Source: a virus. From it: a stretch of DNA of 64,000 bases. Both the position numbers and the translations under genes were made by a program. Numbering within the stretch: position 1 is the first letter of the stretch; each line of letters opens with the position of its first letter. Below are positions 9,032 through 64,000 of the stretch, piece by piece. Under the pieces are notes generated by a model. The model saw nothing but the letters and a program-made list of their open reading frames with translations, made no database searches and was not told the DNA's origin. The DNA lies in the IMG/VR virus record IMGVR_UViG_3300025280_000026, positions 1 to 64,000 of that record, one strand, 5' to 3'.

Positions 9032-9532
9032 ATGCAAATTGAAAAATCTAGATTAAAACAAATTATCAAAGAAGAAATGGACCGCTTAGAAGAAACTTTT
9101 ATGGTTGAACATAGTTGTGCCAATCATGTTTATGAAGACAAGACTGGTCAGCGTGGTACAACATTAGCTCATACACTATGTGAAGATGGTACAGTAACTC
9201 ATTATGATGTAGAATTCGATGATGAAATCAAATTGAATCTTCCAGTTTCTGATTTAACAATTATTACAGAACGAGTCCACAGTCACGCTGCCAAAATGCC
9301 AATGCCTGGATCCGACGGTGGCCATGAAGGCAAAATGACTAAAGAACAGTTAATTAATATGGCCGAACAAGCTCAAAAGCTTTTAGCCATGATTGAAAAC
9401 GGCGAAGAACTCGAAGAATGGGTGCAGCTTAAAATTATTAAAGCTTCAGACTATATAAATTCAGTATATAATCACTTACATGGTGAAGAAGTATTACACA
9501 GCATGGAATCTGGTGGAGGATGCGCAGAATGA
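9032..9532 (+). CDS. Hypothetical (candidate internal head) protein with LKQIIKEE leader
   Basis: His/Cys domain (HSCANHV...THYDVEF) plus EGKM..QL...EWVQ.KI..A.DY domain recalled from T4-like phages. Confidence 0.55.
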   Translation: MQIEKSRLKQIIKEEMDRLEETFMVEHSCANHVYEDKTGQRGTTLAHTLCEDGTVTHYDVEFDDEIKLNLPVSDLTIITERVHSHAAKMPMPGSDGGHEGKMTKEQLINMAEQAQKLLAMIENGEELEEWVQLKIIKASDYINSVYNHLHGEEVLHSMESGGGCAE

Positions 9533-9915
9533 GAATAACGAAACAAAGACTTGTTGAATTGATTAACGAAGAAATAGAGAAAGATGCTTTAGAAACGTTA
9601 AATGAATATGGGCCTTATAGCTCAATTTCTCCAGGCGGCGGTACAAATCCTTATTTAAAGAGAGCTACGCACCCAGATCCTATAAATGATTTAAAAGCTT
9701 TGGAAGTCGGTCAGCTTGATGATATCGCAACTTCTGGCATGGACGGTTTGTTTAACAACGTTCAGATAGCTTCGCGAATTTTAGAAGACCTTCCATTCGA
9801 AGAAATCACAAATTCTAATGTAGCGGATACGTTAGTCCAGGCAGCAGAATCATTGCGTACTGCCCTGGACGCAATTGCAACAGATCGCGACCGCGAAGAA
9901 AAGGGATATATTTAG
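9529..9915 (+). CDS. Acidic hypothetical protein with MRITKQRLVELINEE leader
   Basis: Start moved from 9520 to 9529 (ATGA overlap; GGAGG 9 nt upstream). Confidence 0.6.
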   Translation: MRITKQRLVELINEEIEKDALETLNEYGPYSSISPGGGTNPYLKRATHPDPINDLKALEVGQLDDIATSGMDGLFNNVQIASRILEDLPFEEITNSNVADTLVQAAESLRTALDAIATDRDREEKGYI

Positions 9916-25530: not shown

Positions 25531-26184
25531 ATGACACAAAAACTTTTACGAGAATATTTTGAATTATGTCCCGATGGGAATTGTGTACTTGATGTATTAA
25601 CGGAAGGTGAACGCAGATCCTTGCAAGAAGGCGCGGTTTTTCTCGTAGGTGTTTGTCAAAGGGCAGGTGTCAAAAATGGCAATGGCCGGATCTATAAGAA
25701 GTCGACTCTTGAAAGAGAGGTGGAGAAATACCAGGCTTTGGTACAAGAGCGCCGCGCTTTAGGAGAGTTGGACCACCCAGATGATTCAGTTGTTAATCTT
25801 AAAAACGTATCTCATCTCATGACAAAAATGTGGTGGAAGGGTGACGACGTTATGTGCAAACTTGAAGTAATGAACACTCCATCCGGACAAGTCCTCAAGG
25901 AGCTTATAAAATCAGGTATTAAATTAGGGATTTCCTCCAGAGGCTTGGGTTCTGTCAAAAATCACGGCGGGCAAACAATTGTAGAAGATGATTTTAAATT
26001 GATTGCATTTGATATGGTTTCTGACCCGTCGACGCCCGGCGCCTGGGTCGGCCCGGAAAGAGGTTCTAGCTCAAACCCAGATTTGGCAGATGTTCTGGCA
26101 AAAATGTCTGAGAATATAACTTTGAAAGAAAGCACCGCAAACGGCAAGCTTAATGAAGTTCTAGATGATATATTAAAGAGCTAA
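25531..26184 (+). CDS. gp21: Prohead protease (T4 gp21-like)
   Basis: NGRIY, ALGELDHP, GISSRGLGS, FDMVSDPSTPGA. Confidence 0.95.
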   Translation: MTQKLLREYFELCPDGNCVLDVLTEGERRSLQEGAVFLVGVCQRAGVKNGNGRIYKKSTLEREVEKYQALVQERRALGELDHPDDSVVNLKNVSHLMTKMWWKGDDVMCKLEVMNTPSGQVLKELIKSGIKLGISSRGLGSVKNHGGQTIVEDDFKLIAFDMVSDPSTPGAWVGPERGSSSNPDLADVLAKMSENITLKESTANGKLNEVLDDILKS

Positions 26185-55079: not shown

Positions 55080-55445
55080 ATGTCTAAAATAATTAAAAAT
55101 ATAGTTGCAGAAGTAATTGCAGACAAAGTGCAAGAAGCCGAATGTCTTATCCACACTTCTACAAAAGAAAATTTAACCGATGTCTTAACTTCTATCCGAG
55201 CAATATCGGGAGTTACAATTGTTAATTTAGTTGGCTCTTCACAAAAAGTTTCGGAAGGTAGAACAGCATCATATTTGAAAATTAAGTTTATACCCAATAT
55301 AACTTCTTCTGATAGCTATGTAAGAAACCTGGCGGATTACGTAAGAAATCTTCCAAGCGTCTTCACCTTCGAAGTCAAGAAAGTTGAAAACCTCAAACAG
55401 AAATTGGCGCGCAGGAAGCAACAAAAAGATATAATGAGTATTTAA
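55080..55445 (+). CDS. Hypothetical protein (ACT/ferredoxin-like pattern) under a late-type promoter
   Basis: TDVLTSIRAISGVTIV; ACTAATTA 55051; GAGGAG SD. Confidence 0.6.
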   Translation: MSKIIKNIVAEVIADKVQEAECLIHTSTKENLTDVLTSIRAISGVTIVNLVGSSQKVSEGRTASYLKIKFIPNITSSDSYVRNLADYVRNLPSVFTFEVKKVENLKQKLARRKQQKDIMSI

Positions 55446-59719: not shown

Positions 59720-59980
59720 ATGAGACCTTGTAACCGACACATTTTAATTAAACCCATGGAAGAAGAAGAAAAAGAAATTGCGGTATTGGTGCCTGATAAT
59801 TTTAGGGCTAAAACTACTTCTTTTATTAAAGCAAGAGTAGTAGACTGGGCAGATGATATAAATATACAAATGCATGAAAATGCTATAGTCGTCGTTAACT
59901 CTAGTATGATAGAAGAGATTGTGTTGGGTGACGAAAAATATCATTTAATACTAGAAAATTATGTTTTAGGCTATTTTTAG
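59720..59980 (+). CDS. groES: GroES-like co-chaperonin (gp31-like role)
   Basis: MRPCNRHILIKP...VLVPD...YHLILENYVLG. Confidence 0.7.
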   Translation: MRPCNRHILIKPMEEEEKEIAVLVPDNFRAKTTSFIKARVVDWADDINIQMHENAIVVVNSSMIEEIVLGDEKYHLILENYVLGYF

Positions 59981-61473: not shown

Positions 61474-62248
61474 TTATAAAATGCCCTGGCATGATGCTAT
61501 GATGCCTGTTGGTCCTGATTATTTAGCTGTCGAGCGAAGTGTTGTGGAATGCGCCAACGCTGGCTGTGAGACTATTTGGATTATATGTGATAATGATATT
61601 CAGCCTCTGATTCGTCATCGGTTGGGCGAATACGTGCAAGATCCTGTTTGGGTGACGAGACACTATTCGCCTAAAAAAGGGGATCATAAAAAACCAATTC
61701 CGCTATACTACGTTCCAATAAATATAAGAGACAGGGGTAAAAAGGATAGTTTGTCGTGGAGTATACTACATGGTGCTTACATCGCAAATAATATTTCTTC
61801 AAAGATGAGTAATTGGCTCCGGCCAAATAAGTTTTATGTTTCTTTTCCTTATGGTTATTATGGCCCAACACTTGTCAGGCAACATAGAGATTTAATATCT
61901 ACAAATAAAAACTTTTTTATTTCACATAACGATAAAACTGCTATTGACGGAGAATTTTTGGGGTTTACATTTGGTTACGATGACTATGAAAAATTATTAA
62001 ACAACTTTAGAGGTATCTATTCCAACCATGCACATGAAACAAATTTAAAATTTTCATTGGAGGAAATATTTAATGTGTTAGATATAAAAAACTCAAATGT
62101 TGTTAGTTTTATGAATTACTGGAAGTTGGATGGTTGGGAAAATTATTGTGCATATATATCAGAGCAAGGTCATAGGACGAAAAGACCATCAAAATATATC
62201 TTAAAATACCACGAATGGAACGATATTGGTGTTGACGAAACTAATTAA
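61424..62248 (+). CDS. Divergent sugar-nucleotidyltransferase-like protein
   Basis: LAGIVPLAG...P...MMPVG...AVERSV.ECANAGCETIWII; lacks GxGTR. Confidence 0.6.
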   Translation: MSFHLAGIVPLAGHPLDYKMPWHDAMMPVGPDYLAVERSVVECANAGCETIWIICDNDIQPLIRHRLGEYVQDPVWVTRHYSPKKGDHKKPIPLYYVPINIRDRGKKDSLSWSILHGAYIANNISSKMSNWLRPNKFYVSFPYGYYGPTLVRQHRDLISTNKNFFISHNDKTAIDGEFLGFTFGYDDYEKLLNNFRGIYSNHAHETNLKFSLEEIFNVLDIKNSNVVSFMNYWKLDGWENYCAYISEQGHRTKRPSKYILKYHEWNDIGVDETN

Positions 62249-62254
62249 TAGTGT

Positions 62255-63898
62255 ATGAAGATAGGCGAAATATTAAATAAAAGAGGGGAAAGTTTGCTTT
62301 TGGAAGCAACCGATCCCACTCAACTTGAAATCGAACAACAGGCCCTTTCCATGGCCAAAAAGTACAATGTCCCTTTCGACATTGTTATGCGCCACATGTG
62401 GATTGAGAGTGGATATAAACTCAGAGCGCGCAGCCCAAAGAACGCCTATGGTTTGATGCAGTTGATGCCAGGCACTGCGAAAGACCTCGGTGTCGACCGT
62501 AACAAGTGGGCCCAAAATATAGAAGGTGGTGTTAAATATTTGCGCAGTTTATACAATACACTTGATAATCGCGCTCTTAGTCTGAGCGGGTATTGGAAGA
62601 AAGAGGGCGCGAATTTGGGACGCTTCGGCGCAAAAGGAATTAAGGATAAGTGGGAAGCAGTTGCGGTGGCTTATTTTTCCGGCGGCGGCGGGTTTAACCA
62701 GGTCGCCGCCCGAGCTGCCAAGGCTGGCTATCTAGACGAAAATGGCATGATTGACTGGAAAAGATACAGTAAAGAAACGGGTCGTTACAAAAGAAGAGTT
62801 CGTTATGCAAGAGCCGTTCATGATCCAGACCACTACAGACAAAAACAACGGCGCCGCAGACATTCGTCTTACAAGGTTGCGGTTCCAAAAGAGCTTATAA
62901 GCAATATTGGATTAAAAAAATTTGGGCTAGCACCTGATCCAAAAAACACAAAAACTGTAATCATTTCAGGCAACTCTCATGGTATGTTTATGAGCAAATT
63001 TGTCGAACAGAAGTATGAAGATTTAGGCAGAAGAACCGGCACTCATTATAAGATAATTACCATCCATGCGCCCCAAGGCCATGGCGGGGAGTTACCTGCT
63101 TTGAATTCGAAAATGGAAAATTTGATTCCCGAGTTAAAAGGGAAAAATGTCGCAGCTGTTATACACATCGGTTCCAATCGCGATCCAGTACTAGAAGAGT
63201 TAGTTGATAAGTATCAATCTGTTTCGGACAATGTTGTGTTTATAGGAACGCCAGAAGCTAGGAAAACTAGGTACCTCAAGCCGAATAAGGCATATAAACC
63301 TTATGCGGATAGAATAAAGTGGAATCAGGAGTTAAAAGAAAAATTGGGTGATCGCAAAGGTGTCAAGTTTATCGATACTCATGGTCTAACAACTCAGAAA
63401 GATTTACGCGATAACGTGCACTTACGTAGCAAAGCATACAAAAACCTCTATGGTGCCATAAATTCTCAAATAACATACGACCCAGATATTGATAATAATC
63501 AAAGTGGCTCCCCAGGCGGCGCATCTGTTGTTAAACCGCTCCCCAGAGACAAAATAACACCATCTGTTGGTTCTACACCTTCCCCCGGCCGCTTTGTTCA
63601 TGGATTTACTAAAAAAGAATTCCCCAAATTCGATTTTGGTAAATTTTATAAAGAGCTGGATAATGTTTTTATTGATAAAGGTGGCGCCACAGGGATGTTG
63701 TCAAAACATGGACAAGATTATGCTTTCGGAAGAGAACACAAGGCAGCATGGGACGCTCTGCAAACAGCCAAAGCCAAGACCCCCGTGTCAACACCGGCAC
63801 CACAAATTGTCGACGCAGACGACGAGGCAATAAAAAAAGATATTGATATTGCTGCCCAAGCAGCCGTTGTCGAAGTATTCAAGAAATTCAAAATATAG
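62255..63898 (+). CDS. Lytic transglycosylase (SLT) fused to SGNH hydrolase
   Basis: IES catalytic Glu, AYGLMQLMP, NIEGG.KYL, AYFSG; then GNSH, IGSN.D, DNVH. Confidence 0.8.
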   Translation: MKIGEILNKRGESLLLEATDPTQLEIEQQALSMAKKYNVPFDIVMRHMWIESGYKLRARSPKNAYGLMQLMPGTAKDLGVDRNKWAQNIEGGVKYLRSLYNTLDNRALSLSGYWKKEGANLGRFGAKGIKDKWEAVAVAYFSGGGGFNQVAARAAKAGYLDENGMIDWKRYSKETGRYKRRVRYARAVHDPDHYRQKQRRRRHSSYKVAVPKELISNIGLKKFGLAPDPKNTKTVIISGNSHGMFMSKFVEQKYEDLGRRTGTHYKIITIHAPQGHGGELPALNSKMENLIPELKGKNVAAVIHIGSNRDPVLEELVDKYQSVSDNVVFIGTPEARKTRYLKPNKAYKPYADRIKWNQELKEKLGDRKGVKFIDTHGLTTQKDLRDNVHLRSKAYKNLYGAINSQITYDPDIDNNQSGSPGGASVVKPLPRDKITPSVGSTPSPGRFVHGFTKKEFPKFDFGKFYKELDNVFIDKGGATGMLSKHGQDYAFGREHKAAWDALQTAKAKTPVSTPAPQIVDADDEAIKKDIDIAAQAAVVEVFKKFKI

Positions 63899-63906
63899 AA
63901 GGTAAA

Positions 63907-64000
63907 ATGAATATCAATATCAAGACTTTAATAGGCAACACGCCTTTGGTAAAGATCGCAGAAAAGATTTATGCAAAGCTAGAAACGTATAGCCCATCCG
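63907..64000 (+). CDS. cysK: Cysteine synthase (PLP-dependent), 5' partial
   Basis: MNINIKTLIGNTPLVKIAEKIYAKLETYSPS matches the CysK/CysM N-terminus; truncated by the window edge. Confidence 0.8.
   Translation, partial: MNINIKTLIGNTPLVKIAEKIYAKLETYSPS

What the first reader, a model, noticed from the sequence alone, without database searches (positions are those of the whole stretch)
62240..63898. Lytic transglycosylase fused to an SGNH esterase: self-unblocking peptidoglycan enzyme
Seen: an intact SLT domain plus SGNH blocks GNSH (62969-62980), IGSN and DNVH (63410-63421), a late promoter and a cleavable-looking LLLEA leader. Known: MurNAc C6 O-acetylation blocks lytic transglycosylases, and bacterial Ape1 O-acetylesterases are SGNH enzymes that relieve this. 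Inference: one polypeptide de-O-acetylates then cleaves the wall, countering a host defence, possibly as head-packaged cargo for entry.
Basis: partly seen in the sequence, partly recalled or inferred. Interest (0 to 1): 0.8.

Follow-up and report, generated by a model that had tools for sequence, protein, structure and literature searches.

The report
Phage transglycosylase fused to SGNH esterase
A marine T4-like phage encodes one protein joining a cell-wall-cutting lytic transglycosylase to a true SGNH-fold esterase with all its catalytic residues, most likely to strip the acetyl groups that block such cutting; no activity has been measured.

Summary
ORF 62255-63898 (+, 547 aa) has an SLT lytic transglycosylase domain (Pfam E 1.2e-15, catalytic Glu51 in an E-S motif). 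It also has a 180-aa domain that Pfam barely detects (E 0.066) but which is an SGNH hydrolase. The domain model (pLDDT 89.7) matches only SGNH structures (best Z 16.5), and a family profile hits PDB GDSL enzymes (E 7.5e-5).

The family is tiny: 16 clusters among 1.84 billion proteins, all from uncultured, mostly marine, metagenome data. Its members are fused again and again to peptidoglycan hydrolases: SLT in front, SLT behind, or Amidase_2. The nearest structures include the peptidoglycan O-acetyltransferases PatB and OatA. However, Block II keeps the esterase-type glycine that those transferases lack. De-O-acetylation of MurNAc ahead of transglycosylase cleavage is therefore the best reading, but it is inferred.

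The "late promoter" is a phage-specific ACTAATTA motif. The motif is real and enriched between genes, but here it lies only 7 nt from the ATG. There is no T4 TATAAATA box.

Head packaging is circumstantial. A gp21-type protease is present and leaders are shared among unrelated proteins, but there are no virion data. A separate amidase is the likelier endolysin. I rate this a new variant of a known kind.

The parts
62240..62247 (+). ACTAATTA copy of the phage-specific ACTA[ACT]TTA motif. It overlaps the stop codon of the upstream ORF and lies 7 nt before the ATG.
   Evidence: 22 copies on +, 1 on -, 10 wholly intergenic although only 4.2% of the contig is non-coding. Promoter function was not shown.
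62255..63898 (+). ORF of 547 aa (P0001): leader, SLT domain, basic linker, SGNH domain, Pro/Ser linker, conserved C-module, acidic helical tail.
   Evidence: The same protein is seen on 14 contigs, and near-identical contigs occur in further marine runs.
62255..62305 (+). N-terminal leader MKIGEILNKRGESLLLE (residues 1-17). It ends in L-L-E|A, which fits the L/I-x-E site of T4 gp21-type proteases.
   Evidence: Homologues have related leaders ending LLNE|A or FIQE|K. The cleavage rule is from PMC9026906. Cleavage here is inferred.
62351..62698 (+). SLT lytic transglycosylase domain (residues 33-148). Catalytic Glu51 is at 62405-62407.
   Evidence: PF01464, E 1.2e-15; E 1.4e-17. Glu51 is invariant in A1. 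PHROG matches are to virion and tail lytic proteins.
62747..62938 (+). Highly basic linker of low model confidence (residues 165-228; contains RYKRRVRYAR and KQRRRRH).
   Evidence: sequence; pLDDT below 50 for residues 165-228.
62942..63490 (+). SGNH-fold esterase-type domain (residues 230-412).
   Evidence: pLDDT 89.7, pTM 0.86. (top 50 all SGNH/GDSL, best Z 16.5). (76 Foldseek matches at E <= 1e-3). (PDB GDSL lipase 3p94, E 7.5e-5).
62969..62980 (+). Block I, G-N-S241-H (nucleophile Ser241).
   Evidence: Invariant in A1. Aligns with GDS of the distant member P0019.
63077..63088 (+). Block II, G275-H-G-G278 (oxyanion-hole glycine retained).
   Evidence: It aligns with GVGGET of P0019. PatB and OatA replace this Gly with Ser or Asn (PMC12148441, PMC5697884).
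63170..63178 (+). Block III, G306-S-N308.
63410..63421 (+). Block V, D386-N-V-H389.
   Evidence: His389 is the only invariant column across all 15-18 family members.
63587..63769 (+). Conserved C-terminal module GRFVHGF..FDFxKFY..G.DYxFGREH..A..AL (residues 445-505). It is also found on an unrelated protein (P0007).
   Evidence: No fold or family was found for it.

Best explanation
The gene encodes a bifunctional cell-wall enzyme of a marine T4-like myovirus.

Shown: an N-terminal family-1 lytic transglycosylase (SLT) domain with catalytic Glu51. It is followed by a compact SGNH-fold domain with nucleophile Ser241, oxyanion residues Gly278 and Asn308, and an Asp386/His389 pair.

Inferred: the SGNH domain is an acetylesterase that removes O-acetyl groups from C6 of MurNAc in peptidoglycan. 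The transglycosylase needs the free C6 hydroxyl as its own nucleophile to form the 1,6-anhydro bond. One polypeptide therefore unblocks the glycan and then cuts it, which lets the phage deal with hosts that O-acetylate their wall.

Inferred more weakly: it is made together with the structural genes and acts as a virion-associated or accessory wall-breaching enzyme, not as the main endolysin. The phage has a separate Amidase_2 + PG-binding protein for that role. The short N-terminal leader ending L-L-E|A may be removed by the phage's gp21-type prohead protease.
For: - SLT domain above Pfam's cut-off, with Glu51 conserved in all homologues.
- SGNH fold: model pLDDT 89.7; all 50 best VIA matches are SGNH/GDSL enzymes with Z 11.5-16.5; Foldseek agrees; the family profile hits 15 PDB SGNH proteins, best E 7.5e-5; 11 of 18 family members match Lipase_GDSL_2.
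- All four SGNH blocks are present and conserved.
- Link to peptidoglycan: the exhaustive HMMER search found only 16 clusters. Among them the domain is fused to SLT at the N-terminus (P0001, P0009, P0011; the N-terminal regions of P0002, P0005 and P0012 align with or resemble it but do not reach Pfam's SLT model), to SLT at the C-terminus (P0015, P0016) and to Amidase_2 (P0010).
- Structural neighbours include PatB (Z 15.5, rmsd 2.4), OatA-C (Z 14.4) and Ape1 (Z 12.4-12.7). The ESM Atlas structure neighbours are PatB/DUF459 clusters. Three members hit DUF459.
- Esterase and not transferase: the Block II Gly is retained, whereas PatB and OatA carry Ser or Asn there (PMC12148441; PMC5697884). 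No MBOAT or AT3 donor partner is in the contig.
- Not the main endolysin: Amidase_2 + PG_binding_1 lies at contig 73534-74433.
- Virion link: the SLT part best matches PHROGs of internal-virion and tail lytic proteins; the ACTAHTTA motif is shared with structural genes; a gp21-type protease is present; leaders are shared with unrelated proteins.
- The fusion is bridged by contigs from other runs.
Against: - No activity, substrate or expression data exist.
- The fold does not discriminate substrate. Lipases, xylan, sialate and O-antigen esterases score as well as the peptidoglycan enzymes.
- P0001's own match to Lipase_GDSL_2 is below the Pfam threshold.
- It is not an Ape1 relative by sequence, and it lacks Ape1's inserted carbohydrate-binding domain.
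- The host is unknown, so whether its peptidoglycan is O-acetylated is unknown.
- Two family members (P0015, P0016) lack the Block III Asn and the Block V Asp.
- The gene lies in the replication and metabolism region, not the structural module.
- The ACTAATTA motif is only 7 nt from the ATG, with no Shine-Dalgarno sequence.
- [LIVFM]-x-E occurs by chance in about half of N-termini.
Confidence: 0.5

Rival explanations
1. The SGNH domain is an esterase for another envelope ester: a phospholipid, lipoprotein or LPS acyl ester (helping outer-membrane disruption at lysis or entry), or O-acetyl groups on capsule, EPS or O-antigen, as in phage tailspike deacetylases. On this reading the fusion to SLT only keeps two envelope enzymes together.
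For: Top fold matches include lipases, carbohydrate esterases CE2 and CE3, a sialate esterase and the phage G7C gp63.1 O-antigen deacetylase (Z 11.7), with scores like those of the peptidoglycan enzymes. Virion SGNH deacetylases and predicted lipases are known in phages (PMC5380687).
Against: The domain is fused to three different arrangements of peptidoglycan hydrolases, and never, in the 16 clusters, to a tailspike, fibre or receptor-binding domain. The closest Atlas structure neighbours are PatB/DUF459. For a transglycosylase there is a direct chemical reason to remove the C6 acetyl group.
Confidence: 0.22
2. The SGNH domain is a peptidoglycan O-acetyltransferase like PatB or OatA-C. It would add acetyl groups, for example to limit its own transglycosylase or to protect the infected cell's wall.
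For: PatB is among the best structural matches and has the lowest rmsd. Block III G-(S/T)-N and Block V D-x-V-H fit the OatA motifs G(T/V)N and Dx(I/V)H (PMC5697884).
Against: The defining transferase change (Block II Gly replaced by Ser or Asn, giving a type I turn) is absent: Gly275, Gly277 and Gly278 are invariant in the five closest homologues and Gly278 in at least 90% of the wider family. No MBOAT or AT3 acetyl donor is in the contig, though only about 46% of the genome is held. GTN and DxVH also occur in ordinary esterases (alignments). Acetylation would block the fused SLT domain.
Confidence: 0.07
3. The protein is simply a large endolysin or accessory lysis enzyme released through a holin at the end of infection. 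The N-terminal 'leader' has no targeting role.
For: There is no signal peptide or membrane segment. The gene lies outside the structural module, among replication and metabolic genes. L-x-E motifs are common by chance. Head contents of myoviruses enter the cytoplasm, where a wall enzyme is of no use.
Against: A separate Amidase_2 + PG-binding candidate endolysin exists. The conserved leaders and the C-module are shared with unrelated proteins. The size (547-1002 aa) and the PHROG matches resemble virion-associated lysins.
Confidence: 0.3

Closest known systems
Ape1, O-acetylpeptidoglycan esterase of Neisseria and Campylobacter (PDB 4K3U, 8GLD)
   Same: SGNH fold with a Ser-His-Asp triad and a Gly/Asn oxyanion hole (Z 12.4-12.7). 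Proposed same reaction, with the same biological logic: de-O-acetylation is needed before lytic transglycosylases can act (PMC6174289 and PMC9487903 describe the system).
   Different: No detectable sequence relationship. Ape1 is a periplasmic stand-alone bacterial enzyme with a carbohydrate-binding domain inserted in the SGNH fold (PMC9487903). Here the domain is a compact 180 aa without an insert, phage-encoded, and covalently fused to the transglycosylase.
PatB (DUF459) and OatA-C, peptidoglycan O-acetyltransferases (PDB 7TJB, 5UFY, 6VJP)
   Same: Among the closest structures (PatB Z 15.5, rmsd 2.4, 161 residues; OatA-C Z 14.4). They share GTN-like Block III and DxVH Block V motifs, and act on MurNAc C6.
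   Different: The transferases replace the Block II Gly with Ser or Asn, and PatB has two beta-hairpin wings and an MBOAT partner (PMC12148441). This protein keeps the glycines, is shorter, and no partner is seen.
Virion-associated lysins with an SLT domain (T7 gp16-type internal virion proteins, SLT-bearing tape measure and tail proteins) and two-domain virion lysins such as Staphylococcus phage phi11 Gp44 (endopeptidase + SGNH)
   Same: The SLT part matches PHROGs annotated as internal virion protein with endolysin domain, lytic tail protein and endolysin, and a tape measure protein in the PDB (9b45). A phage lysin that combines a peptidoglycan hydrolase with an SGNH domain has a precedent (PMC5380687).
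   Different: The SLT + SGNH combination was found in no isolate phage record and no IMG/VR contig. The SGNH domain belongs to a separate small family. The phage is a T4-like myovirus, not a podovirus or a Gram-positive siphovirus.
T4 internal proteins carrying a capsid targeting sequence removed by gp21
   Same: The phage encodes a Peptidase_S77 (gp21-type) protease. The protein starts with a short helix-prone leader ending L-L-E|A, fitting the L/I-x-E rule (PMC9026906). Leader types are shared by unrelated proteins. The gene lies away from the head genes, as T4 ip genes do (my own knowledge).
   Different: No virion or cleavage data. The leader differs in sequence from the T4 one. A wall enzyme delivered into the cytoplasm would make little sense.

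Membership tests
SLT / family 1 lytic transglycosylases (PF01464) | Profile match above the curated threshold | tested here: met
   57.6 bits against a cut-off of 21.3, E 1.2e-15, residues 33-148; 59.6 bits in the six-frame search.
SLT / family 1 lytic transglycosylases (PF01464) | Catalytic Glu in the E-S motif, plus the GLMQ and AYNxG motifs (motif definitions from my own knowledge of Slt70-type enzymes) | tested here: met
   E51-S52, G66-L-M-Q69 and A148-Y-F-S-G152 (Asn replaced by Phe). Glu51 is invariant in A1. Activity was not testable.
SGNH hydrolase superfamily | Five-stranded parallel alpha/beta/alpha fold matching solved SGNH structures | tested here: met
   Model pLDDT 89.7. 1vjg Z 16.5, rmsd 2.7, 168 residues aligned; all 50 listed matches are SGNH/GDSL. 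Foldseek agrees.
SGNH hydrolase superfamily | Blocks I (Ser), II (Gly), III (Asn) and V (Asp-x-x-His) | tested here: met
   S241, G278, N308 and D386/H389 are invariant among the close homologues. They align with canonical motifs of distant members and of PDB proteins.
Pfam Lipase_GDSL_2 (PF13472) | Score above the gathering threshold (32.9 bits) | tested here: not met
   14.1-16.4 bits, E 0.014-0.066, for this protein. 11 of 18 family members match at E <= 0.1, best 4.4e-24. It is therefore a divergent sister family within the superfamily, not a member of this Pfam family.
Ape1-type O-acetylpeptidoglycan esterases | Carbohydrate-binding domain inserted in the SGNH fold, and sequence kinship with Ape1 | tested here: not met
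   The domain is a compact 188 aa with no insert. Ape1 aligns only over its SGNH core (Z 12.4-12.7, target length 350-365). No Ape1 chain appears among the sequence hits at E <= 10.
Ape1-type O-acetylpeptidoglycan esterases | Hydrolysis of the 6-O-acetyl group of MurNAc in peptidoglycan | not testable with these tools
   Needs an enzyme assay. Only contextual support is available (fusions to SLT and Amidase_2).
PatB/OatA peptidoglycan O-acetyltransferases | Block II Gly replaced by Ser or Asn (type I turn), per PMC12148441 and PMC5697884 | tested here: not met
   Q-G-H-G-G-E: G275, G277 and G278 are invariant in the five closest homologues and G278 in at least 90% of the wider family; the block aligns with canonical GxGGET.
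PatB/OatA peptidoglycan O-acetyltransferases | Membrane acetyl-donor partner (MBOAT PatA or an AT3 domain) | tested here: inconclusive
   No PF03062 or PF01757 match in the 83.6-kb contig. However, the contig is estimated at 46% of the genome, and a host partner cannot be excluded.
T4-type capsid-targeted internal proteins | gp21-type prohead protease in the same phage | tested here: met
   PF03420 Peptidase_S77, 115.7 bits, E 7.8e-35, in the ORF 25531-26184.
T4-type capsid-targeted internal proteins | Short N-terminal propeptide ending in L/I-x-E | tested here: inconclusive
   L15-L16-E17|A18 is present, but such motifs are frequent by chance. Support comes from leaders shared among unrelated proteins.
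T4-type capsid-targeted internal proteins | Presence in the head and cleavage during maturation | not testable with these tools
   The phage is uncultured. No proteome is available.

The most novel reading that the evidence does not exclude
Marine T4-like phages use portable N-terminal leaders, cut by the gp21-type protease, together with a shared C-terminal module, to load a changing set of cell-wall enzymes into the virion. These include SLT-SGNH, Amidase-SGNH, SGNH alone and an unrelated enzyme body. The SLT-SGNH fusion would then be an injected 'unblock-then-cut' tool against O-acetylated peptidoglycan. That would be the first phage-borne counter to this wall modification and a new class of head or virion cargo.
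Probability: 0.2. Interest if true: 0.8.

Novelty: new variant of a known kind. Interest (0 to 1): 0.55.

Why it matters
O-acetylation of MurNAc blocks lysozymes and fully blocks lytic transglycosylases. Bacteria that use it need a separate esterase (Ape1) before their own transglycosylases can work. A phage protein that welds the two activities together would be natural evidence for that coupling. It would also be the first indication that phages counter wall O-acetylation enzymatically, and a ready-made template for lysins active on O-acetylated, lysozyme-resistant walls.

The SGNH domain defines a very small, so far unnamed, metagenome-only family: 16 clusters in 1.84 billion proteins. It occurs almost always next to a peptidoglycan hydrolase. 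The shared leaders and C-module hint at a modular delivery system in non-model T4-like phages.

Tried and rejected
- IMG/VR scan with A1: no relative. GTDB genome scan with A2: no relative. Search for shorter stand-alone relatives by word index: none; the exhaustive search later found P0013.
- tblastn against isolate phages found only SLT-domain matches covering 21% or less of the query.
- The whole-protein AF2 model was poor (pLDDT 54.8) and its Foldseek list was noisy. I replaced it with the domain model.
- C-terminal module: no Pfam, PHROG or Atlas lead. It has no second copy in the contig.
- P0007 (same leader type and same C-module, different body): no Pfam, PHROG or NCBIfam match.
- Canonical T4 late promoter TATAAATA: 15 copies in the window, none near this gene. 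Sigma-70 and terminator scans were at background level.
- No RNA holder is listed among the public runs, so nothing can be said about expression. The laid contigs were near-identical, so they gave no test of selection.
- Lysozyme (PF00959) and Peptidase_M15_4 searches of the contig found nothing. The contig is only about 46% of the genome.
Full report
**What is there.** The window is the first 64 kb of an 83,587-bp linear viral contig, estimated at about 46% complete. It is a distant T4-like myovirus.
- It has a gp23-type major head protein (phrog_138, E 4e-73), a T4 baseplate protein, a tail sheath, gp32, a UvsX-like recombinase, a DnaB-type helicase and a class II ribonucleotide reductase.
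- The head protein is nearest to those of Flavobacterium phage immuto, Microcystis phage Mel-JY01 and Rhodothermus phage RM378.
- The DNA recurs in many marine metagenome runs.
- All genes lie on the + strand.
- The finding is the ORF 62255..63898, 547 aa. It starts 6 nt after the stop of the preceding ORF. A PALP-family (cysteine-synthase-like) gene follows at 63907.

**Check of the observation.** The SLT domain is solid: PF01464, residues 33-148, E 1.2e-15, with the E51-S, GLMQ and AYFSG motifs.

The second domain is almost invisible to Pfam (Lipase_GDSL_2, E 0.066, covering only Blocks III-V), so it needed independent tests.
- Five full-length homologues (41-43% identity over residues 215-547) keep IISGNSH, QGxGG, IHxGxN and DNVHLR invariant.
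- An exhaustive HMMER search of 1.84 billion representatives with the domain profile found only 16 clusters. The most distant ones carry canonical GDS, GxGGET, GxND and DxxHP motifs in the aligned positions.
- One of these (P0020) passes Pfam's Lipase_GDSL_2 threshold. In all, 11 of 18 family members match that family at E <= 0.1.
- A family profile hits 15 PDB SGNH/GDSL proteins, best 3p94 at E 7.5e-5.
- The domain alone, folded with an 18-sequence alignment, gives pLDDT 89.7 and pTM 0.86, with the expected five-strand alpha/beta/alpha order.
- All 50 best matches of an unbiased structural scan are SGNH enzymes, Z 11.5-16.5. Foldseek gives 76 matches at E <= 1e-3.

Contigs from other runs span the SLT-SGNH junction without change, so the fusion is real.

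**What the SGNH domain probably does.** The fold alone does not name a substrate, because lipases and several carbohydrate esterases score alike. Three lines of evidence point to peptidoglycan O-acetyl groups.
1. Within this tiny family the domain sits behind an SLT domain (P0001, P0009, P0011; the N-terminal regions of P0002, P0005 and P0012 align with or resemble it but do not reach Pfam's SLT model), in front of an SLT domain (P0015, P0016), or behind an Amidase_2 domain (P0010). These are independent arrangements with wall hydrolases. None involves a fibre or spike domain.
2. The enzymes that handle the MurNAc 6-O-acetyl group are among the nearest structures: PatB (Z 15.5, lowest rmsd 2.4), OatA-C (Z 14.4) and Ape1 (Z 12.4-12.7). 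The Atlas structure neighbours are PatB/DUF459 clusters, and three members give weak DUF459 hits.
3. The chemistry fits. A lytic transglycosylase uses the C6 hydroxyl of MurNAc as its nucleophile, so a C6 acetyl group blocks it completely (established knowledge; reviewed in PMC6174289, listed).

On esterase versus transferase: PatB and OatA replace the Block II glycine with Ser or Asn, which flips the turn, and with a hydrophobic wall this favours transfer over hydrolysis (PMC12148441; PMC5697884). This family keeps the glycines: Gly275, Gly277 and Gly278 are invariant in the five closest homologues and Gly278 in at least 90% of the wider family. No MBOAT or AT3 partner is in the contig. I therefore read it as a hydrolase. 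It is not an Ape1 family member: it has no inserted binding domain and no sequence kinship.

**When and where it acts.**
- There is no T4 TATAAATA box near the gene.
ACTA[ACT]TTA occurs 22 times on the + strand and once on the - strand. Ten copies are wholly intergenic although only 4.2% of the contig is non-coding. It typically lies 16-68 nt upstream of structural genes that have a Shine-Dalgarno sequence.
- At this gene the motif overlaps the upstream stop and ends 7 nt before the ATG, with no Shine-Dalgarno sequence. The same layout occurs at 74429. Either the transcript is nearly leaderless or the gene is read from upstream transcripts.
- The phage has another wall enzyme, Amidase_2 with a PG_binding_1-like N-terminus, at contig 73534-74433. 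This is a more ordinary endolysin candidate.
- The size of the SLT-SGNH protein, its PHROG neighbours (internal virion protein, lytic tail protein) and its highly basic linker resemble virion-associated lysins.

**The leader idea.** The phage encodes a T4 gp21-type protease (PF03420, E 7.8e-35). Such proteases cut after L/I-x-E and remove 10-residue capsid-targeting leaders from T4 internal proteins (PMC9026906). The protein begins MKIGEILNKRGESLLLE|A.

Taken alone this is weak, because about half of the contig's ORFs have such a motif near the start. The comparative data are more telling.
- Homologues begin with conserved leaders (MQKFFDSWRDFIQEK...LLNEA).
- An unrelated 584-aa protein (P0007) carries the same kind of leader and the same C-terminal module.
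- A stand-alone SGNH homologue (P0013) starts with KSRLKQIIQEE, nearly identical to the start of window ORF 9032.
- The extra C-terminal domain of the homologues resembles a separate 121-aa ORF of this phage, 55080-55445 (E 1e-4).

This suggests portable end-modules. But there are no virion data, and head contents of a contractile-tailed phage normally reach the cytoplasm. I give head cargo about 0.2-0.3.

**Comparison and novelty.** SLT domains in virion proteins, SGNH deacetylases in tailspikes, and one endopeptidase + SGNH virion lysin (phi11 Gp44; PMC5380687) are known. Peptidoglycan de-O-acetylation by prophage SGNH proteins has been suggested from models (PMC9862828). I found no description or database record of an SLT + SGNH fusion, and the SGNH family itself is unnamed and metagenome-only. 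I rate it a new variant of a known kind, of moderate-to-good interest and directly testable.

**Verdict.**
- The domain reading is supported.
- The substrate and 'self-unblocking' mechanism are plausible (about 0.5) but untested.
- The late promoter is partly supported.
- Head cargo is speculative.

Noticed in passing
window 9032-9532 and 9520-9915: ORF 9032 starts MQIEKSRLKQIIKEE. The stand-alone SGNH homologue P0013, from another metagenome, starts MLLTKSRLKQIIQEE (11 of 15 identical). The same leader therefore sits on unrelated proteins in different phages. ORF 9032 also weakly matches a cytidyltransferase PHROG.
   Followed up: partly
window 55080-55445: A 121-aa ORF preceded by the ACTAATTA motif resembles the extra C-terminal domain (about 150 aa) that the 665-723-aa homologues of P0001 carry and P0001 lacks (30% identity over 89 aa, E 1e-4). 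It may be a split or fused pair.
   Followed up: partly
L002:337-2091 (P0007, TARA contig): A 584-aa protein with the same type of leader (MNQLLENWEEFLNEA) and the same C-terminal GRFVH..FDFDKFY..GREH module as P0001, but an unrelated body containing an S-M-N-K (SxxK-like) motif. No family match.
   Followed up: partly
whole contig; window sites 3411, 3441, 8863, 27899, 31958, 34694, 40075, 44179, 55051, 60008, 62240: The octamer ACTA[ACT]TTA occurs 22 times on + and once on -. It is strongly enriched in the 4.2% of non-coding DNA, usually after a T-run and 16-68 nt before a gene with a Shine-Dalgarno sequence. It is a candidate phage-specific promoter element.
   Followed up: partly
contig 72811-74433 (L005:8911-10533), beyond the window: A ClpP-like protease gene (PF00574, E 4.9e-29) lies directly before an Amidase_2 + PG_binding_1 gene, the likelier endolysin. 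A small hydrophobic ORF (72453-72833) precedes them.
   Followed up: partly
window 63907-64000, running on to contig 64761: A PALP-family (cysteine-synthase-like) gene, E 1.1e-60, lies immediately downstream of the SLT-SGNH gene. It looks like an auxiliary metabolic gene.
   Followed up: partly
window 62747-62938 (residues 165-228 of P0001): The linker between the two enzyme domains is extremely basic (runs such as KRRVRYAR and KQRRRRH) and poorly modelled. It could bind DNA, LPS or the outer membrane.
   Followed up: no
window 59720-59980 and contig 76158-77738: From their sequences alone, these look like a GroES-like 86-aa ORF and a GroEL-like 526-aa ORF (N-terminus MAKSYAQGKELREKILKGINILADNV...). 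Neither was confirmed with a family search that gave a hit.
   Followed up: no
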